Position numbers and translations under genes: made by a program. Positions 23,690-45,500 of a stretch of DNA of 64,000 bases are shown in pieces. Origin of the DNA: a virus; IMG/VR virus record IMGVR_UViG_3300046499_000591, positions 15,198 to 79,197 of that record, one strand, 5' to 3'. Each line of letters begins with the position of its first letter. The stretch's first letter is position 1. The notes under the pieces were generated by a model that was given only the letters and a program-made list of their open reading frames with translations, searched no databases and was not told where the DNA came from.

Positions 23690-25078
23690 TCAGTGCTCCG
23701 ACGGGGCGTCGTCGCCGGCTGCTGCGGCGGCGGCCGCCGCGGCGTCCTCGGCCGCACGGGCCCGCTCCTCCGCCCGTACGCGCTCCTCCGTCGTACGGGC
23801 GAGTTCCTCGGCCTCGCGGAGCAGCCGGCGGACGCCCTCCACCTCGTCCCGCAGCGTATCGACGCGGGTTTCCAGCGCGCCGGCCCGTTCCGTCGCCCGG
23901 TCCACGTCGGCGCGCGCCCGCCGCAACTCGGCTTCCAGGCCCTTCCGTAGCTGGGTCGCGGCCGCCTCCACGGCGGTAACCCGTGCCGTCGCGCTCTCGG
24001 CGGCCTGGCGGGCGGCGGCGTCCGCGGCGCGCGCCCGGTCGTCCGCCGCGTTCGCGGTCGTCTGCGCGGCGCTGACGGCCTCGGCCGCCTCGGCCTTCAC
24101 GCCGGCGGCCGCGGCCCGTTCCTGCTTCACGGTCGCAGTCATCTCGTCGACGAGCCGCTTGGCCTCGTTCTGCGCCCGGCCGGCGACGGCCTCGCGGGCG
24201 GCGGCGGCCTCCTTCGCGGCCCGGACCGTCTCGGCGGACTCGGCCTTGACCCGCTTGACTTCGTCGCGGGCCTCTCGGACGGCCCGCTCGGCCTCGGCCC
24301 GGGCCTCCGCCACCAGGCGCTCCGCCTCGACGCGGCCAGCCTCGATGCGGTCGGCGGCGTCGGCCAAGGCTGCGGCTGTGTCCTCCGCGGCCTTGGTCTT
24401 CGCCCGCTCGACCTCGCCGGCCGCTTCCGCGCGGGCTGCCTCGACGTCCCGGGCCGCATCCTCGCGGGCCGTCTCGACCTCGCCGGCCGCCTCCGTGCGG
24501 ATGCGCTGCACCTCGGCGTCGAAGCCGGCCCGGGCTTGGTCGAGTTGGGCGATGGCCTCCTCGGCCGCATCGTCCGCGGCCTTCTGGAGTTCGGCGGCGC
24601 CCCGGGCGGCGGTCTCCGCGGCGTTCCGGCCGGCGTGCGCGGTGGAGGCGGTGGCCTCGGCCGCCGCGATTCGGGCGGCGGCGTCGTTGGTGACCGCGAG
24701 CATTTGCGCCTCGGCGGCCTCCGGGTCGGTGATGGTCTGGAGTTGCTGGACGTAGCGGCCGAGGTCGCCGGAGAGGCGCTGCATCGCGCCGAGGACGTCG
24801 GCGCGGAGGTCCACGGCGGTCGCGGCCGCCACGGACACGGGGCGGTCGACGTCCTCGGGCTCGGGCCGGCCGGCGGCCTTGGCCTCCCTGCGGTTGCGGG
24901 CCTTGTACGCCGTGAGCGCGTTGTGGTCCTCCCGCTCGCAGTAGACGGACGGCCGGCCGGTCGTGCCGGGGGCGCGTTCCTTCACCGGGTCCATGCACCC
25001 GGGGTACGCGCACGTCGGGGGCGCCTCGGCGTCGTCCTCGTCGCGCTCTGCCGTTTCGACGCGCTGGGGCTCGCTCAC
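23690..25078 (-). CDS. Long coiled-coil protein with N-terminal Cys/His (Zn-like) domain
   Basis: CAYPGC...GRPSVYC...DH N-terminus followed by about 350 aa of Ala/Glu/Arg heptads; GGAG RBS. Confidence 0.75.
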   Translation of the reverse strand: MSEPQRVETAERDEDDAEAPPTCAYPGCMDPVKERAPGTTGRPSVYCEREDHNALTAYKARNRREAKAAGRPEPEDVDRPVSVAAATAVDLRADVLGAMQRLSGDLGRYVQQLQTITDPEAAEAQMLAVTNDAAARIAAAEATASTAHAGRNAAETAARGAAELQKAADDAAEEAIAQLDQARAGFDAEVQRIRTEAAGEVETAREDAARDVEAARAEAAGEVERAKTKAAEDTAAALADAADRIEAGRVEAERLVAEARAEAERAVREARDEVKRVKAESAETVRAAKEAAAAREAVAGRAQNEAKRLVDEMTATVKQERAAAAGVKAEAAEAVSAAQTTANAADDRARAADAAARQAAESATARVTAVEAAATQLRKGLEAELRRARADVDRATERAGALETRVDTLRDEVEGVRRLLREAEELARTTEERVRAEERARAAEDAAAAAAAAAGDDAPSEH

Positions 25079-25126
25079 CCGTATCTCCTCGTGGTCGTGG
25101 GGCGACGCCGAGTGTACTCACGGGCC

Positions 25127-25191
25127 GGTTTCGTTCCATTCCATTCCATTTCATGGCGCGAGAATGGAACGGAATGGAATGGAACGAAACC
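25127..25191. repeat. Inverted repeat built from TTCCA/TGGAA pentamers
   Basis: GTTTCGTTCCATTCCATTCC (25128-25147) and GGAATGGAATGGAACGAAAC (25171-25190) form a perfect 20-bp inverted repeat, with further pentamers inside. Confidence 0.85.
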
Positions 25192-25287
25192 CCGGCCCGG
25201 GGTCGCGTACGCCCGTTTCCGGCCCGTAGACGCGACGGCGCCCCCGCCGGCAGTCCGGCGGGGGCGTCGTACGGGCGGAGGGGGGCG

Positions 25288-25530
25288 TCAGTCGCCGAAG
25301 ATGGTGGCGAACAGCGCGTAGATGGCGCAGCCCCCGCCGACCAGGATGAAGCCCCACACGATCAGGACGTCGAGGGGGTTGCCGTAGTCGATGGGCGTGA
25401 AGACGTCGGGGGTGTCCTCCGCCTGCTGCCGGGCTTCCTGGTTCTTCATATGCCAGCTCTGCGCGGCCATGTAATCGCTCGCCTGCTGGCGGAACGCGTC
25501 GTCGGCCTGCTGGCGTTCCCAGTCCTGCAT
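25288..25530 (-). CDS. Small membrane protein
   Basis: GGGGGA RBS; C-terminal hydrophobic helix VLIVWGFILVGGGCAIYALFATIF; own promoter upstream. Confidence 0.65.
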   Translation of the reverse strand: MQDWERQQADDAFRQQASDYMAAQSWHMKNQEARQQAEDTPDVFTPIDYGNPLDVLIVWGFILVGGGCAIYALFATIFGD

Positions 25531-25562
25531 GGGTCCCCCTCGTATAGTGCGGATGCGGCGAT

Positions 25563-25593
25563 CAGCTTCGCATCCCGTGTAGCTACAGGCAAG
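25563..25593 (-). promoter_or_regulatory. Leftward promoter with TGTAGCTACA operator
   Basis: Minus strand reads TTGCCT-GTAGCTACAC...GAAGCT; palindrome at 25578-25587. Confidence 0.65.
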
Positions 25594-25600
25594 AGGGGTC

Positions 25601-25786
25601 TTACCAGGTGCGCGGCCCCCCGTAGTACGCCCATTCGGCCTTCCGGTCGGCCTCGACCTGGATCAGAATGTCGCGCATGAAGTCACCGGTGCCGTACTTG
25701 CAGCCGGGCTTGTGCGGGAACGGGAACTGGTTCGACGTCACGCCGCAGCCGCCGCCGTCGCACGTGTCGTAGCCGTACCGGATCAC
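25601..25786 (-). CDS. Small Cys-containing hypothetical protein
   Basis: GTG overlaps the recombinase stop; VIRYGYDTCDGGGCG...HKPGC. Confidence 0.45.
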   Translation of the reverse strand: MIRYGYDTCDGGGCGVTSNQFPFPHKPGCKYGTGDFMRDILIQVEADRKAEWAYYGGPRTW

Positions 25787-26859
25787 AGGCCGATGCCTCT
25801 CATGGGGTTCTCTTCGCGGTCGTCCACGGGCCGGATGTACGCGAGGACTTGCGGCGAGTTCTCCGCCCACCGGCCCTGGGTGCGGATCGCGGAGACGGGC
25901 GCCTTCTGTCGGTACGCCTCGCTCGCGCCGCCGGCCCGGAAGCCGTGGGCGGTGTAGGTCAGTCCGTCGTCGGGGAACACGACGGCGGCCCGGCGCTGCA
26001 CCATCTCGTTGATGGCGTCGCCGGACATGGAGTCGTGGGTGATCTGGTCCCACTGGTTGATGGCGCGCAGGAGTCGGCCGGTGGTGATGCCGCGGTCGGC
26101 GAGCGCGGCCCGGTACGCGCGGACGACGCGGACGGGGTCGGTGTCGTTGTGGACGCCGCGCGGCACGATGACCTCGACGCCGTCGCCCTCCTGGTCGGTC
26201 TTGGAGGCGCGGATCAGGATGGTGAGGTCGCCCTCGTCGTCCTCGCTGATGTCTTCCAGGTGTAGGCCGGCCAGTTCGGAGCGGCGGGCCATCATCGCGA
26301 ACCCGAGGACGAGGATGACCCGGTCGCGGAGGCCGGCGAGGGTGGTGAGGTCGCACGTGTCGATGAGGGCGCGCAGCTTGGCGAGGTTGATGGGCGGCGC
26401 CTTGCGCTTGCGGGTGCCGGCCTTCGCGCGCCCCTTCTTGTAGGCGGCGAGCAGGCGCAGCGCGCCGGCGGTGTCCGGCTGGTCGCGGTAGCCGGCCGAC
26501 TTGTGGCGGGAGCGGATGACGCCGAGGGCCTGCTCGATGCTGGACGGGGCCGGCGTGCGGCCGGTGCGCTCCGACGGGGTCACGGTCATGTGCCGGACGT
26601 ACTCGGTGAGGGTGGCCGGCGTCGCCGGCAGCGGCACCCGCCCCTGGACGGTGCACCAGCCGGCGAACGTCTGCCACTGTCGGGTGTAGGCGCGTTGGGT
26701 GTTCTCGGGGACGGAGTCGACGAGGGCCTGGCGGGTCTCGTCGCTCACCTCGTGGTCGCGGTCGGTGTGGACGAGGGGCGTCTCGGGGCGTGCCGCCGGC
26801 AGGAGGTGGTCGTCGTCGACGAGCTCGGCGTCGACCACTTCGGATTCGTCGTCTGTCAC
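25783..26859 (-). CDS. Cre-like tyrosine recombinase (putative dimer resolvase)
   Basis: Complete catalytic set as in Cre: R (MMARRSEL), K (SKTDQ), HxxR (HGFR), W (QGRW), Y (LAYIR); N-terminal NTQRAY...W..F..WC core-binding domain. Confidence 0.9.
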   Translation of the reverse strand: MTDDESEVVDAELVDDDHLLPAARPETPLVHTDRDHEVSDETRQALVDSVPENTQRAYTRQWQTFAGWCTVQGRVPLPATPATLTEYVRHMTVTPSERTGRTPAPSSIEQALGVIRSRHKSAGYRDQPDTAGALRLLAAYKKGRAKAGTRKRKAPPINLAKLRALIDTCDLTTLAGLRDRVILVLGFAMMARRSELAGLHLEDISEDDEGDLTILIRASKTDQEGDGVEVIVPRGVHNDTDPVRVVRAYRAALADRGITTGRLLRAINQWDQITHDSMSGDAINEMVQRRAAVVFPDDGLTYTAHGFRAGGASEAYRQKAPVSAIRTQGRWAENSPQVLAYIRPVDDREENPMRGIGL

Positions 26860-26871
26860 GCCCTCAATCTT

Positions 26872-26899
26872 ACCCGTGATAAGCCAAGTTATCCGGGGT
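26872..26899. other. Putative 11-6-11 recombination core site (lox/dif-like)
   Basis: ACCCGTGATAA-GCCAAG-TTATCCGGGGT; arms 9/11 inverted, with the inner TAA/TTA typical of tyrosine recombinase sites; 12 bp upstream of the recombinase start. Confidence 0.7.
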
Positions 26900-27056
26900 T
26901 ATGCGCTGAACGGCTCCTGATACAGGGCCAGAAAACGGCTGTGCGGCTCCGTGGGAGCCGAACGGCCCTCCCGACGTCCGGTCGCACCGGACACGGCGAG
27001 ATCGTCGACGAGAGGGCCCGTTCTGTGGGTCGCGTTTCTACCGATCCGCGAGCGTT

Positions 27057-27377
27057 TCACCCTTTGGGCGGATTGACGAGACGGGCGCGGGAGTTCACGC
27101 ACTCGAACCGGTCCCATGGCATCGGATGGGAACACTCGTTGCCATGCTCGGGGCAGTCGGTGCAGTCCGGGCAGTAATCCTCATCCGGCCGGAACACGCG
27201 CCGACACCGACCACACACAGGGTGCCGCTTCATCCGGCCCAGATTGATCGCCAGGTTCACGGCCGCGTCCGCCGCCGTGCCCGGCTCGGGCACGACGTAG
27301 AGGAGCTCGTACTCCAGCACGGCAATGCGCAGGCGGTCGGCGCGCGACCGGGCGGGACGACGACGGAACCAGGGCAC
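27057..27377 (-). CDS. Cys-rich hypothetical protein
   Basis: CGRC...CPDCTDCPEH...C motifs; start uncertain. Confidence 0.45.
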   Translation of the reverse strand: MPWFRRRPARSRADRLRIAVLEYELLYVVPEPGTAADAAVNLAINLGRMKRHPVCGRCRRVFRPDEDYCPDCTDCPEHGNECSHPMPWDRFECVNSRARLVNPPKG

Positions 27378-27583
27378 GAGGGGACCGTACCCCCGCGTAC
27401 CGACAGAGAGCATGAAGCGCGACCCCGCACTCCCCCGCCAAGGGGACTGCAACATGCGGGACCGCGCTTCATGTGGTTGGAGCCAGGCAGCCCAGGCAGG
27501 GGCCCGACTCCTGAACGCTACGGCTCACGGACCGGCGGCCGCCACCCGAACTCAGCTTCCTGGGCGCCGGCGCATCAACTCTG

Positions 27584-28333
27584 CTACGGACGGCCGGAGT
27601 CGAACTGCTTGCCCGGGCCGCGACGCCGGCGCGCACGGGCCCGCTCGTCGGCCTCCCGCTGAATCGAGCCGAACGTCTCCTCACCCTGCCTTTTGCGAAG
27701 GTGGCGGATGTTGTTCGCAGGTATGCCGACCTTCGGCGGCCCGTACACGGCGAGGAGGTCCGACGCCTCCTGGGACGAGTAGCCGGCGGCCTCCATGGCG
27801 GCATCGTCGATGAAGACGTCGGCGTGCCGGTCGTGTTCGAGGTCGATGAGGTGGTCCTCCTTCCCACCCAAGGAGAGCACCCACAGGAAGTTCGCCGGCG
27901 GGTCCGGCTGGACGATCCGGCGAAACCGGTCGACGGCCTTGGTGTACGCGTAAAACGTCACGGCCGGCGTCGCGCGGATGATACGAAGCCAGGCTTCGAC
28001 GTACGCATCGCTGTAGAAGTCACCGCTGTCATGGATGCGGACGTGGGCGCCAGAGGCGTACCGCTTGTGCGTCAACTCCTTGATCATGCGGGCCTCCCAG
28101 CCCGGCATGTCGTCCATGAGCATGGCGAGGTTGCGCTCGTGAGCTGCGAGGACGCCGCGGAACCGGTACGTGCCGGTGCGGGCGTAGCAGAGTTTCACGC
28201 ACGCCTGCGCCTCCGGGCACGTGTTGTATGTGCGACCGTCGGCGAGCCGGCCCGCCCACGCCGGCAGCGACCAATTCCATATGCCTTCGCGGCGTAGCTC
28301 GCTGTTCTGCCGAAGCAGCCATTCGGTAGCCAT
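27584..28333 (-). CDS. GP88-like protein (radical-SAM-like Cys triad)
   Basis: WSLPA, CPEAQACVKLCYAR.G.Y (CX5CX3C), VRIHDSGDFYS and FYAYTK motifs. Confidence 0.7.
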   Translation of the reverse strand: MATEWLLRQNSELRREGIWNWSLPAWAGRLADGRTYNTCPEAQACVKLCYARTGTYRFRGVLAAHERNLAMLMDDMPGWEARMIKELTHKRYASGAHVRIHDSGDFYSDAYVEAWLRIIRATPAVTFYAYTKAVDRFRRIVQPDPPANFLWVLSLGGKEDHLIDLEHDRHADVFIDDAAMEAAGYSSQEASDLLAVYGPPKVGIPANNIRHLRKRQGEETFGSIQREADERARARRRRGPGKQFDSGRP

Positions 28334-28437
28334 ACACGGCTCCCTCCGTCGATGCGATAGGCGGAGGGACGCCTTCCAAGTGATCGCATTATGCGGTCGG
28401 CCTGCGACGAACGCGAATCATCGGCAACGATGCGCCC

Positions 28438-28779
28438 ATGAATCACCACATGATCAGGATTGCGGCCGGCGCCGTCCTCGCCGGCGCGCTCATTACCGGC
28501 TGTTCCAGCAGCGGCCCGACCGCCGACCAGAAGAGATACGCCGACGCCGCGGCGGCCGCCGACCCCGACGACTTCGGCGGGATGAAGACCGACGACCTCG
28601 CCGGCACCCTCGGGGACGAAGGCAAGGAGCTGTGCGACCAGTTGAAGAAGGGCTCGTACGCCGACGCCCTGGCGTACGCCAAGACCGGCTTCCCGGGGAA
28701 GCAAGCGGCCGCGCTCGTCGACGCCGCGGTGCTCGTCAACTGCCCGGACCAGAAGGGGAAGGTGCCGGCCGGATCGTAG
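28438..28779 (+). CDS. Lipoprotein
   Basis: Signal peptide with lipobox (LITG-C-SS); two further Cys that could form a disulfide. Confidence 0.75.
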   Translation: MNHHMIRIAAGAVLAGALITGCSSSGPTADQKRYADAAAAADPDDFGGMKTDDLAGTLGDEGKELCDQLKKGSYADALAYAKTGFPGKQAAALVDAAVLVNCPDQKGKVPAGS

Positions 28780-28797
28780 GCCGGCCCCGGAACGACC

Positions 28798-28828
28798 GAG
28801 CGCCCCCGGGGTACCTCCGGGGGCGCTC
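28798..28828. terminator. Hairpin between the lipoprotein gene and mini-array 1
   Basis: GAGCGCCCCCGG-GGTACCT-CCGGGGGCGCTC. Confidence 0.7.
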
Positions 28829-28830
28829 TG

Positions 28831-28921
28831 GGCCACAGCCCCGCGTGCGCGGGGAGCAGCGGTAGCCCGGTGGTCGACCTACAGTCTCCGCATGGGCCAT
28901 ACCCGACACGTCGGGTGGTGC
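28831..28921 (-). CRISPR. Type I-E-like single-spacer mini-array 1 (degenerate repeat - 33-nt spacer - canonical repeat)
   Basis: Minus strand: GCACC-ACCCGA-CGTG-TCGGGT-ATGGCCCA, spacer TGCGGAGACTGTAGGTCGACCACCGGGCTACCG, then CTGCT-CCCCGC-GCAC-GCGGGG-CTGTGGCC; both repeats have the 5+16+8 I-E geometry. Confidence 0.75.
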
Positions 28922-28996
28922 TCGACCGAGGAGAGGTGTATCTATCTAGGCGAAAGCACACCTGAAGTTGTTGCTTCGATGGTGCCTCGGTCGAGC
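28920..28996. ncRNA. Candidate structured RNA abutting mini-array 1
   Basis: 12-bp closing stem GCTCGACCGAGG/CCTCGGTCGAGC enclosing AGGTGT..GC-GAAA-GC-ACACCT and GAAG..CTTC helices. Confidence 0.45.
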
Positions 28997-29042
28997 GGTT
29001 CAACTATGGCACAGGCCGCTGACACCGTGCAGCCGAACCGGG

Positions 29043-43018: not shown

Positions 43019-43933
43019 CTAGTCCACCGTCACACCCGCCTCGGTGAGTGCCGCGTTGAGGACCCGCACTAGGTCCCGTACCCGCGCCGGATCCTTGCGG
43101 ACCGCCTCGCGCACGGTCTCCGGCACGAGCAGCTTCGCGGCCCGCTCCACGACGGCGCCCGGGTCGGCGGCCGCCGCGAGCGCCGGCGTCTCCTCGGGGT
43201 CGACCCTCGTGGTGATGCCCAGGAGTGCCTTCGCCTTCTCCAGCTCGTCGGGGGTCGGCGTCGCCCCCTTCTTCGTCTCGCACGCCGTCTTCCAGATCTT
43301 GACGACCCGGTCGGCCCCGTGCTGCAACCGCACCGAGTGCAGCGCGTCGACCTGCCGGGAGGACAAGTCCTCGAGGACGTAGCCGGCGCCCCGAAGGACC
43401 GCGAGGAGCGGGAGCGTCTGCGTGATCCGGTAGCCGGTGCGTTCCGAGAGGTCGTGTTGCTCGCGGAGGTACTTCGCGAAGGACCGGTAGGTCTTCCCGT
43501 CGTTCCCCTTGATCAGCTTGTAGAGCTTGTGCTCGTGGACCCAGCACAGGTACGGGCCGGCCGCGGCGATGAACTCCTCGTTGGCCGCGTCCACCTTCGC
43601 CTTCCACTGGGCCTTCGCCCCGTGGATGCCGCGCTCGCACACGGCGAGCTGTTCGGCCGGCTCGGCGTCCGGGCTGGGCAACGCCGGCGGCACGAACGCC
43701 GTCGGCGCCACGAACGTCGGCATGACCACGGCCGGGGCCGCGGCGGGTTCCGCGGGACGGGTGGCCGGGACGGCCGCCGGCTGCGCCCCGCCGACGGGTG
43801 CGTCTCCCTGCTCCCCGCCCTTTGTCTCCTCCCACTCCGCCATCACCTGCGCGCGCGTCCGGACCACCGGCGCCGGAGCGCCCGGCGGCTCCAACCCCGT
43901 CGACGGCAGCTCCTTGGGCTTGTACTTACTCAC
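43019..43933 (-). CDS. ParA partner (non-canonical ParB-like DNA-binding protein)
   Basis: ATGA overlap with parA; disordered basic N-terminus; LY...YRSFAKYLREQHDLSERTGYR HTH-like motif; no GxxR ParB-CTPase box seen. Confidence 0.65.
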   Translation of the reverse strand: MSKYKPKELPSTGLEPPGAPAPVVRTRAQVMAEWEETKGGEQGDAPVGGAQPAAVPATRPAEPAAAPAVVMPTFVAPTAFVPPALPSPDAEPAEQLAVCERGIHGAKAQWKAKVDAANEEFIAAAGPYLCWVHEHKLYKLIKGNDGKTYRSFAKYLREQHDLSERTGYRITQTLPLLAVLRGAGYVLEDLSSRQVDALHSVRLQHGADRVVKIWKTACETKKGATPTPDELEKAKALLGITTRVDPEETPALAAAADPGAVVERAAKLLVPETVREAVRKDPARVRDLVRVLNAALTEAGVTVD

Positions 43934-45075
43934 GCCGCCAACTCCTTCGCCACGGCGCGCATCGTCTCCGCCTGCGGGCTGTCCGGCGCGTACTCAAGGA
44001 GCGGGATCTCGTAGTCGGACGACTCGCGGCCCTCCACGGAGTCCTTGAGGTGGGCCAGCACACCGGGCGTCGTGAGTTCGTTCCACGCGTCGTAGAACGA
44101 CCGGGTCACCGTGCCCTTACGGGAGTCGTACGCGTTGACGATGATGCCGAGCTGGTCGACGACGATGCCGGTCCGCTCGCACTGGGTGACGATCTGGTTG
44201 TTGAGGAGCTTGTACGCGCGGAACGACGACTTGTCGGCCCACACGGGGACGAGGACACCGGAGCGCTCCATCAGCTCACCCGGCCGGCGCTGCACGTAGT
44301 CGATGGCGAGGTCGAGGCCGAGCCCGAGGTTCGGCGGGCCGTCGAGGAGGACGACGTCGTAGTTGGCCTCGACGGGGGCGAGGGCGCGGGCGAGGCAGGT
44401 GTCCCGGCCGGCGCGCATGGAGGCGAGTTCGGCGTCCATGAGGAACGCGTCCTCGGAGGCCGGCAGTATGTGCAGCCGTCCACCGAACCGCTCGCCGTCG
44501 AGGGCGATGATGGACCGGGCGAGGTGCGTCGCGGCCTTGCCGAGCATGTGCTGGAGGAGGCTGTCGCCGCCGAGCGGAAGTTCGGCGACCTGGAGCCGGG
44601 CGGAGAGGTGGCCCTGCGGGTCGTAGTCGACGAGGAGGACGCGGAGCCCCATCTCGGCGAGGGCCTGGCCGACGCCGGCAGTGATGAACGTCTTTCCTAC
44701 GCCGCCCTTTTGATTGGCAATCAGGACGCGCTGCACCGGTTGCGACACGAGCCGGTGTTCCGGGGACGGGTGGGCCTTGAGCCACACCGTGACCGCTTGC
44801 GCCATGCCCTGGACCTTGGTGAGTCCGCGGGCGTCGCACTCGGCTTCGAAGCGTGCCGGGCCGCCGGGAGGGAGGAAGACGCCCCACGACTTGGCGCCCT
44901 CGACCGGGACCGCGTCGGCGGCCGGCGCGGCGTACCAGAGGTTGAGGGCGTGGGCGGCGGCGTCCTGGACGTTCACCCCGTGCTCGGCCGCACGGATCTT
45001 GAGGTCCCGCCGCATCGACGGCATGAGGTTGACAAGCAACTTCTCGCGCGCGTTGTCAGGTGTTTCGGTCGTCAT
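43930..45075 (-). CDS. parA: ParA Walker-type partition ATPase with N-terminal tandem RHH-like extension
   Basis: IANQKGGVGKT deviant Walker A; VLLVDYDPQG, YDVVLLDGPP and IPLLEYAP.S..AE motifs. Confidence 0.92.
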   Translation of the reverse strand: MTTETPDNAREKLLVNLMPSMRRDLKIRAAEHGVNVQDAAAHALNLWYAAPAADAVPVEGAKSWGVFLPPGGPARFEAECDARGLTKVQGMAQAVTVWLKAHPSPEHRLVSQPVQRVLIANQKGGVGKTFITAGVGQALAEMGLRVLLVDYDPQGHLSARLQVAELPLGGDSLLQHMLGKAATHLARSIIALDGERFGGRLHILPASEDAFLMDAELASMRAGRDTCLARALAPVEANYDVVLLDGPPNLGLGLDLAIDYVQRRPGELMERSGVLVPVWADKSSFRAYKLLNNQIVTQCERTGIVVDQLGIIVNAYDSRKGTVTRSFYDAWNELTTPGVLAHLKDSVEGRESSDYEIPLLEYAPDSPQAETMRAVAKELAA

Positions 45076-45500
45076 GGCGAGCAAATTACCAGTCTCGGTT
45101 CCGGATGCCGGTGGGACGCCACACAACGACACCGGAGGGTGACCCGGGCGGCCGAACGCGCGTACACATCGGGTGGCGTGGTGGGGTGGCGCGTTGCCGT
45201 GACGTCGCTCTACAATCACCCGCATGCCGGGGCTTTCCCCGGCGACCTTGAAGGACTCGGCCGTCCTCTTCGCTTGTGATTCATGTCGGCAAACCTGGGC
45301 ATGAGCGGAGGGGGCGGCTCCTTTATGCGTGATCACCTGCGGGTAAGGTGATCAGCCGTGCGTTACGAAGGGGACTAGACATCACGGAAACAGTGGCGGC
45401 CGGCAAGTCGGTCTGTCACCCTGCCGATAGGGATACCGGTAGTTTCGCGTTGTCTGCCCGCGGAGAAACGCCATTCCAGCTAAGCGTGAAGAGAGACCCG

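What the first reader, a model, noticed from the sequence alone, without database searches (positions are those of the whole stretch)
25783..26899. Cre-like recombinase with a candidate cognate 28-bp lox/dif-like site
Seen: intact R-K-HxxR-W-Y catalytic set, and 12 bp upstream an 11-6-11 site with 9/11 inverted arms and an asymmetric GCCAAG spacer. Known: Xer/dif sites have this geometry, while loxP is 13-8-13. Inference: a new recombinase/site pair for dimer resolution and autoregulation, potentially useful as a high-GC genome engineering tool.
Basis: partly seen in the sequence, partly recalled or inferred. Interest (0 to 1): 0.7.

Follow-up and report, generated by a model that had tools for sequence, protein, structure and literature searches.

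The report
Cre-type recombinase with its lox-like site
A roughly 98-kb Streptomyces-type phage-plasmid encodes a relative of the P1 Cre recombinase, and its probable 34-bp lox-like target site lies on the gene's own promoter; this is a new, untested member of a well-known kind of system.

Summary
ORF 25783-26859 (-) encodes a 358-aa tyrosine recombinase. Over its full length its only solved relatives by sequence are P1 Cre and the Cre derivative Tre (profile E 1e-25). All catalytic residues are present. The 11-6-11 repeat lies 12 nt upstream of the start codon. On its own it is not significant: 49 such repeats occur in the window against about 33 expected.

Comparison with homologues makes the case. 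A GATAA-N6/7-TTATC palindrome lies just upstream in 61 of 111 homologous loci, against 5 of 409 control stretches. The homologues span several phyla, and the arms change in a compensatory way. The real site is 34 bp, 14-6-14 (26869-26902). That is loxP's length, with a dif-like ATAA-N6-TTAT core and the GATA motif reported for Cre-type sites.

The site overlaps a -10-like TAAGAT that sits 7 nt before the GTG. This suggests a leaderless, self-repressed gene.

The element has a ParA gene, a single site and no other recombinase. In integrated relatives the site is internal. Multimer resolution is therefore more likely than integration.

Verdict: a new member of a known kind, of moderate interest. 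Activity is untested.

The parts
25783..26859 (-). Gene for a 358-aa Cre-type tyrosine recombinase (P0001), GTG start. Residues 1-38 form an acidic, low-confidence tail; residues 39-348 align with Cre residues 20-331.
   Evidence: Codon position 3 is 96% G+C. The catalytic residues are invariant in alignment A1.
26869..26902 (.). Lox-like site of 34 bp, 14-6-14. On the + strand it reads CTTACCCGTGATAA GCCAAG TTATCCGGGGTTAT. It is the only copy in the 98-kb record.
26869..26882 (.). Promoter-proximal arm. In gene sense it reads TTATCACGGGTAAG.
   Evidence: It is conserved in the 68-76% identical relatives as TTATCAGCGGTAAG.
26883..26888 (.). Asymmetric 6-bp centre (GCCAAG; CTTGGC in gene sense). 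It is the presumed strand-exchange region and sets the orientation of the site.
   Evidence: It varies among relatives (CCTTCC, CTTGCC, CTTTCC) while the arms are kept. The cleavage positions are inferred by analogy with Cre and Xer.
26889..26902 (.). Promoter-distal arm. It reads TTATCCGGGGTTAT on the + strand and is 11/14 identical to the loxP arm TTATACGAAGTTAT.
26867..26872 (-). -10-like hexamer TAAGAT. It overlaps the outer 4 bp of the proximal arm and lies 7 nt before the GTG, which would give a leaderless mRNA.
   Evidence: Read from the sequence. It is conserved in L003, L090, L098, L115 and L122, and other clades carry TAnnnT hexamers 5-7 nt before their start codons. The simple sigma-70 scan did not find it, so this is an inference.
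26930..26967 (-). GC-rich hairpin followed by GUUUUCU, about 30 nt upstream of the site. It may be a terminator that shields the recombinase promoter from upstream transcription.
   Evidence: -27.4 kcal/mol, z -2.2. The terminator scan did not call it, so this is tentative.
43019..45336 (-). Context: a ParA-type ATPase gene (43930-45336) and a 304-aa downstream partner (43019-43933). This is the partition module of the element whose multimers the recombinase would resolve.
   Evidence: AAA_31 81.8 bits, CbiA 62.4 bits. The partner has no Pfam match.

Best explanation
P0001 is a simple tyrosine recombinase of the Cre type. Its cognate target is the 34-bp site at 26869-26902. One monomer would bind each 14-bp arm, two sites would pair in a tetramer, and strands would be exchanged across the asymmetric 6-bp centre, as in Cre/loxP.

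The element is a roughly 98-kb phage-plasmid, probably circular, with a ParA partition module and a single site. The most likely job is therefore to convert plasmid multimers back to monomers before partition. It may also circularise incoming DNA, as Cre does for P1.

The proximal arm overlaps the -10 element of a probably leaderless recombinase mRNA. Bound recombinase should therefore also repress its own gene.

What is shown: homology to Cre, the full catalytic set, the site and its conservation and arm covariation beside homologues, the single copy of the site, and the ParA gene. What is inferred: binding, the cleavage positions, multimer resolution and autorepression.
For: Protein:
- phmmer against solved structures finds only Cre and Tre, over the full length (E 1e-11).
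- A profile of 27 homologues also finds only Cre and Tre (E 1e-25).
- The 33 best Foldseek matches to the model are all Cre or Tre (E 1e-13 to 1e-8). The next match is an Xer protein at 5e-5.
- The catalytic R, K, H, R, W and Y are invariant.

Site:
- GATAA-N6/7-TTATC occurs 20 times in 54.6 kb upstream of homologues and 6 times in 493 kb elsewhere.
- Sites scoring at least 15 occur in 61 of 111 upstream regions and in 5 of 409 control regions of equal size.
- In 31 distinct sites the arms are 87.8% complementary. Shuffled arms give 71.6% (0 of 500 shuffles reach the observed value) and slid registers give 29-41%. Nine of 14 arm positions change on both sides.
- Among 68-76% identical relatives, the 34-bp site plus the -10 hexamer is the conserved island in an otherwise diverged upstream region.
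- A GATA motif next to the spacer is a reported hallmark of active Cre-type sites (PMC10250229).

Role:
- ParA is present.
- It is the only tyrosine or serine recombinase detected in the record.
- There is one site per record.
- The two ends of the record overlap by 214 bp.
- A 69% identical relative lies on a contig that NCBI names a plasmid and that carries phage lysis genes.
- pZL12, a described plasmid-phage, carries a homologue with a GATAA-N6-ATATC repeat before its start.
Against: - No experiment exists for this protein or for any close relative.
- The window's site is among the least symmetric in the family: 10/14, with only 5 of the 9 outer positions complementary. It would fail the published filter of at most 2 mismatches.
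- In the published screen only about half of the predicted pairs were active (PMC10250229).
- Of 10 related virus records only 1 has ParA and 5 are classed as proviruses. Multimer resolution of a plasmid therefore cannot be the family's general role.
- No sigma-70 consensus promoter was found by the simple scan.
- The site-picking score rewarded arm symmetry, which inflates the complementarity figure. It does not affect the contrast between upstream and control regions.
Confidence: 0.6

Rival explanations
1. The recombinase is the phage integrase and the 34-bp site is attP. The element would integrate into a similar pseudo-site in the host chromosome.
For: It is the only recombinase found in G000. 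Five of 10 related virus records are classed as proviruses, and G001, G007, G008, G009 and G010 show no other integrase. Homologues lie on contigs of 0.4-2.3 Mb. Cre-type enzymes can integrate DNA.
Against: In the integrated relatives L087, L090 and L122 the intact site and the gene lie inside the prophage. Phage genes flank them on both sides, and the host junction is 5-9 kb away. No second half-site was found in the 10-kb flanks. Four of 10 related records carry a separate canonical tyrosine or serine integrase. G000 has ParA and overlapping ends, as a free replicon would.
Confidence: 0.12
2. The main role is in the lytic or infection cycle rather than in plasmid maintenance. The recombinase would circularise terminally redundant incoming genomes, or resolve replication dimers and concatemers.
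For: The module occurs in many relatives that lack ParA and have their own integrase. In several relatives an endonuclease VII (junction-resolving) gene follows it directly. In the P1 record Cre is annotated as 'cyclization recombinase'.
Against: The site lies at 42 kb of the record, far from the 214-bp end repeat. Recombination between two copies in a terminal redundancy therefore looks unlikely for this genome. G000 lacks endonuclease VII.
Confidence: 0.15
3. The palindrome is only a promoter operator, or a site for another protein such as host XerCD, and the recombinase acts elsewhere.
For: The ATAA-N6-TTAT core is the same as in dif sites (established knowledge), and the repeat overlaps the promoter.
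Against: The arms differ between recombinase clades within the same host genus and change together with the recombinase across phyla. A host dif site would be constant within a genus. The site stays beside the gene in otherwise unrelated genomes: G000 and G001 share essentially only this module.
Confidence: 0.06

Closest known systems
Cre/loxP of phage P1
   Same: Full-length homology of 24% identity (BLASTP E 3e-20). Identical catalytic residues. The same two-domain fold. A 34-bp target with inverted arms ending in ATA/TAT. One arm is 11/14 identical to a loxP arm. The carrier is a phage-plasmid with a partition system.
   Different: The site touches the gene's own promoter and lies 9 nt from the start codon, whereas loxP lies about 420 bp upstream of cre, beyond three promoters. 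The arms are GC-rich and less symmetric (10/14). The protein has an extra acidic N-terminal tail of 38 aa. The host is an actinobacterium.
Mined Cre-type recombinases and their sites (VCre, SCre, Vika/vox, Nigri/nox, Panto/pox, YR1-YR12; PMC10250229, PMC3553980, PMC4957104)
   Same: The same logic applies: a palindromic site within 1 kb of the gene and a G-A-T-A motif next to the spacer. From memory, the SCre site SloxM1 (…GTCCGATAA…TTATCGGAC…) is nearly identical to the arms found here in L057 and L058.
   Different: The main text of PMC10250229 mentions neither Streptomyces nor Actinobacteria, and its supplement is not held. This site would fail that study's filter of at most 2 mismatches. 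Activity here is untested.
XerCD/dif and plasmid cer/psi sites
   Same: A 6-bp centre flanked by ATAA and TTAT, and a role in multimer resolution.
   Different: A single recombinase rather than a XerC/XerD pair. Scores fall far below the XerC and XerD family cut-offs (32.5 against 371 bits and 28.8 against 329.6 bits). The arms are 14 bp, not 11 bp. No accessory sequences were seen.
ResD/rfsF of plasmid F (D protein, resolvase and repressor; from memory, Lane et al. 1986)
   Same: The proposed dual role: a plasmid-encoded tyrosine recombinase that resolves multimers at a site in a promoter region and also represses transcription.
   Different: No detectable sequence similarity. This is an analogy only.
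pZL12.36c of Streptomyces plasmid-phage pZL12
   Same: 31% identical. It sits on a 90-kb plasmid-phage with ParAB (PMC4487206) and has a GATAA-N6-ATATC repeat followed by AAGAT before the gene.
   Different: Its site scored just below my threshold (14). It is followed by an endonuclease VII gene. It is annotated only as 'integrase/recombinase'. The original paper is not held.

Membership tests
Cre-type simple tyrosine recombinases | Catalytic set R-K-H-R-W-Y | tested here: met
   R192, K220, H305, R308, W331 and Y341 align with the Cre residues and are invariant in A1.
Cre-type simple tyrosine recombinases | Full-length similarity to Cre that includes the N-terminal DNA-binding domain, with no arm-binding domain | tested here: met
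   Residues 39-348 align with Cre 20-331. The profile finds only Cre and Tre. Foldseek ranks 1-33 are Cre or Tre, with TM-scores 0.49-0.66. Pfam finds no additional domain.
Cre-type simple tyrosine recombinases | Palindromic target of about 34 bp close to the gene, with a GATA motif beside the spacer | tested here: met
   The site at 26869-26902 lies 9 nt from the start codon. It is conserved and covaries beside homologues. The motif is described in PMC10250229.
Cre-type simple tyrosine recombinases | Recombines two such sites without accessory factors | not testable with these tools
   This needs an excision reporter or an in-vitro assay.
XerC/XerD-dif | Protein belongs to the XerC or XerD families | tested here: not met
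   The best NCBIfam scores are 32.5 bits (cut-off 371) and 28.8 bits (cut-off 329.6), and they cover only the N-terminal half.
XerC/XerD-dif | 28-bp site with 11-bp arms and a 6-bp centre | tested here: inconclusive
   The ATAA-N6-TTAT core is present, but conservation and symmetry extend to 14 bp per arm.
Lambda-type phage integrase with attP | In lysogens the site is split, and the gene lies at the prophage-host junction | tested here: not met
   The site is intact and internal in L087, L090 and L122.
P1-like phage-plasmid multimer resolution system | Free replicon with partition genes and one site per monomer | tested here: met
   ParA is present. There is one site. The ends overlap by 214 bp. 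No replication gene was identified.
P1-like phage-plasmid multimer resolution system | Loss of the system raises multimers and lowers stability | not testable with these tools
   This needs genetics in the host.

The most novel reading that the evidence does not exclude
Across actinobacterial members of this Cre-type clade, the lox-like site may be built into the core promoter of a leaderless recombinase mRNA. One 34-bp element would then serve as both recombination site and autoregulatory operator. The gene-plus-site module appears to move as a unit between otherwise unrelated phage and plasmid genomes. If it acts without host factors, it would be a natively high-GC recombinase, possibly orthogonal to loxP (orthogonality untested).
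Probability: 0.45. Interest if true: 0.45.

Novelty: new member of a known kind. Interest (0 to 1): 0.36.

Why it matters
If active, this would be a Cre-type recombinase and site native to high-GC actinobacteria. It could add a further recombinase to the engineering tools for Streptomyces and related antibiotic producers; whether it is orthogonal to Cre/loxP and the other systems in use is untested.

The comparative set also gives a family-wide site model: CTnACCCnCGATAA-N6-TTATCGnGGGTCAG, with clade-specific arms. This is ready-made natural variation for studying how Cre-type proteins read their half-sites.

Biologically, it suggests that Streptomyces phage-plasmids solve the multimer problem as P1 does, with tighter coupling of site and promoter. 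None of this changes current understanding of tyrosine recombinases.

Tried and rejected
- The significance of the inverted repeat alone was rejected: 49 observed against about 33 expected.
- A search for a second full site or for half-sites in the 98-kb record and in G001 found none.
- A search for att-like half-sites at the prophage ends in L087, L090 and L088 found none within 10 kb, and no tRNA genes.
- Endonuclease VII, the partner gene seen in relatives, is absent from G000.
- F-plasmid ResD was tested as a homologue and shows no similarity.
- The sigma-70 promoter and terminator scan found nothing in 25200-27700.
- Rfam on 25000-29000 gave only spurious microRNA-model hits on a palindrome at 25120-25200.
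- Repeats in the 700-bp upstream spacer show no iterons of note.
- The close-relative scan of the metagenome collection gave only one locus.
- The pZL12 paper (PMC2897331) and the supplement of PMC10250229 are not held.
- Streptomyces plasmid homologues of 35-39% identity (L027-L031) showed no site of this type. Their targets, if any, are different.

Full report
**Where the window lies.** The window is bases 15198-79197 of a 98,216-base IMG/VR virus record, G000, rated 89% complete. It is about 71% G+C and carries phage-type and plasmid-type genes. The first 214 bases of the record repeat at its end with 3 mismatches. The record is therefore probably a closed circle, or has terminal repeats.

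**The gene.** ORF 25783-26859 on the minus strand starts with GTG and encodes 358 aa (P0001). Its third codon positions are 96% G+C. The Pfam Phage_integrase model reaches only 19 bits, below its cut-off. The XerC and XerD models reach about 30 bits against cut-offs above 300.
- Against all solved structures, the single sequence matches only Cre and the Cre derivative Tre. Residues 39-348 align with Cre 20-331 at E 1e-11.
- A profile of 27 homologues gives the same exclusive list at E 1e-25.
- Direct BLASTP against P1 Cre gives 24% identity at E 3e-20.
- An AlphaFold model (mean pLDDT 77) has Cre or Tre as its 33 best Foldseek matches, at E 1e-13 to 1e-8. The next group, the Xer proteins, starts at 5e-5.
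- R192, K220, H305, R308, W331 and Y341 align with the catalytic residues of Cre and are invariant in the family.

"Cre-like with an intact catalytic set" is therefore correct.

**The site as described.** ACCCGTGATAA-GCCAAG-TTATCCGGGGT occupies 26872-26899. Its arms are 9/11 complementary, and 12 nt separate it from the start codon. Taken alone this is weak evidence: the window holds 49 repeats of this geometry and quality, and Markov shuffles give 33 on average. The GATAA-N6-TTATC core, however, occurs only once in the window and once in the whole record.

I collected homologous loci from five sources:
- virus contigs;
- one genome per species;
- a metagenome contig;
- named contigs;
- phage records.

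The results were as follows.
- Exact GATAA-N6/7-TTATC occurs 20 times in 54.6 kb upstream of the genes and 6 times in the other 493 kb. Several of those 6 lie only slightly further upstream.
- I then scored each candidate by its match to the core plus the symmetry of the outer arms. 61 of 111 upstream regions reach a score of 15, against 5 of 409 control stretches of the same length; at a score of 16 the counts are 48 against 2. Some loci are near-duplicates, but 31 distinct 6-bp-spacer sites remain.
- Their consensus is CTnACCCnCGATAA-N6-TTATCGnGGGTCAG. ATAA and TTAT are invariant, and many members are perfect 14-bp palindromes (for example L012, L016, L019, L102).
- The arms differ between clades but stay mutually complementary: 87.8% of positions, against 71.6% after shuffling (0 of 500 shuffles as high) and 29-41% in slid registers. 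Nine of 14 positions change on both sides.
- My selection score favoured symmetry, which inflates the complementarity figure. It does not affect the contrast between upstream and control regions.
- Among relatives 68-76% identical in protein, the 34-bp site plus the following hexamer is the conserved island in an otherwise diverged upstream region. The arms are kept while the 6-bp centre varies (CTTGGC, CCTTCC, CTTGCC, CTTTCC). One relative, L088, has changed GATAA/TTATC to CATAA/TTATG on both arms.

The palindrome is therefore a functional element tied to this recombinase family, in Actinomycetota and in several other phyla.

**Geometry.** With the conserved outer bases the window's site spans 26869-26902 and reads 14-6-14, a total of 34 bp, which is the length of loxP. 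Written in the loxP convention it is 13-8-13 with arms ending in ATA/TAT. Written in the dif convention it has the ATAA-N6-TTAT core. The two descriptions are the same object. The P1 record gives the loxP arm as TTATACGAAGTTAT. The window's distal arm, TTATCCGGGGTTAT, matches it at 11 of 14 positions, while the family consensus matches at only 7 of 14, so part of this resemblance may be chance. A G-A-T-A motif next to the spacer has been reported as a shared feature of experimentally active Cre-type sites (PMC10250229). The window's site is one of the less symmetric in the family (10/14).

**Promoter overlap.** In gene sense the sequence reads …TTATCACGGG**TAAGAT**TGAGGGC**GTG**. TAAGAT fits the actinobacterial -10 pattern TAnnnT and lies 7 nt before the start codon. 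That spacing suggests an mRNA without a leader. The same hexamer and spacing recur in L003, L090, L098, L115 and L122. The 50-57% clade has TAnnnT hexamers 5-7 nt before its ATG and about 8-10 nt after the site. A hairpin followed by a U-rich tail lies about 30 nt upstream (z -2.2, weak evidence). The generic sigma-70 scan found nothing. The promoter, and hence autorepression by bound recombinase, is my inference. In P1, lox lies about 420 bp upstream of cre, beyond three promoters, so the tight overlap here is a difference from P1.

**What it is for.** G000 carries a ParA-type ATPase gene with a downstream partner. It shows no other tyrosine or serine recombinase and has a single site. A 69% identical relative sits on a contig that NCBI names a plasmid and that also holds lysin and holin genes. 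The described plasmid-phage pZL12 has a 31% identical homologue with a similar repeat before its start (ParAB per PMC4487206). This matches the P1 arrangement, so resolution of plasmid multimers is the most likely role here.

Integration is less likely.
- In three integrated relatives (L087, L090, L122) the intact site and the gene lie inside the prophage, 5-9 kb from host genes. No second half-site was found in the flanks.
- Four of 10 related virus records carry a separate canonical integrase.

Two findings count against plasmid maintenance as the general role. Only 1 of those 10 records has ParA, and several have no other integrase. The family's general role therefore cannot be plasmid maintenance. 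Circularisation or dimer resolution during the phage cycle remains a live alternative, and in several relatives a junction-resolving endonuclease VII gene follows the recombinase. G000 lacks that gene.

**Mosaicism.** G000 and the 74%-identity relative G001 share almost nothing at the DNA level except the recombinase gene, at 79% over 996 bp. The gene-plus-site module therefore moves between unrelated genomes.

**Known or new.** Searching for palindromes within 1 kb of Cre-type genes is an established route. It produced about 500 predicted pairs, of which 8 of 17 tested were active (PMC10250229). This pair is another member of that kind, from a high-GC actinobacterial phage-plasmid. Its site would have failed that study's symmetry filter, and it has an unusually tight overlap of site and promoter. 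F-plasmid ResD, which from memory is both a resolvase and a repressor, is a functional analogy only, since no similarity is detectable. I found no paper on this clade.

**Verdict.** The role and the autoregulation are plausible but inferred, and activity is untested. This is a new member of a known kind, of moderate interest.

Noticed in passing
G000 record ends (outside the window: bases 1-214 and 98003-98216): The first and last 214 bases are direct repeats with 3 mismatches. IMG/VR calls the record 'linear', but this looks like a closed circle or a terminal repeat.
   Followed up: partly
L020:6323-6352 (Streptosporangium vulgare): A second, perfect lox-like palindrome, CTCCCCGGATAA GTCACA TTATCCGGGGAG, lies 3.3 kb downstream of that locus's recombinase start. 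Its arms resemble the window's, and an extra half-site lies 20 nt further on. No second recombinase is present in the 650 nt held.
   Followed up: partly
L059:2905 and L059:3916 (Balneolaceae MAG): GATAA-N6-TTATC sites lie on both sides of the recombinase gene, with different spacers. This may be an excisable or invertible cassette.
   Followed up: no
L087:11050-11580, L090:11071-11559, L005:4921-5472: An endonuclease VII (Holliday-junction resolvase) gene directly follows the recombinase gene in several relatives, including pZL12. It is absent from the window's element.
   Followed up: partly
window 26903-26912; L003:3917-3929; L087:9511-9523; L090:9921-9933: The motif AGCGCATAAC(GTC) lies 35-50 nt upstream of the site in relatives. 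In the window it is fused to the distal arm, as if about 48 nt between two TAAC repeats had been deleted. It may be an accessory half-site.
   Followed up: no
L087:9612-9998; also L010 and L105: A small conserved ORF (M-x-DDLTL…, 128 aa in L087) sits between the site/promoter and the recombinase gene in some relatives, making a two-gene operon under the same site.
   Followed up: no
L004:2615-2648 (Microcystis phage Mwe-JY05): The best phage-database hit (42.6% identity) is in a phage listed for a cyanobacterial host. Its GATAA-N6-TTATC palindrome lies 540 bp upstream, in front of a small operon that ends with the recombinase.
   Followed up: no
window 25120-25200: A long palindrome gives spurious sub-threshold hits to microRNA models on both strands. 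It lies upstream of the coiled-coil gene 23690-25078, which another first-stage note already describes.
   Followed up: no
Neither Pfam on the protein nor a Phage_integrase search of the whole record gave any match there.
   Followed up: partly
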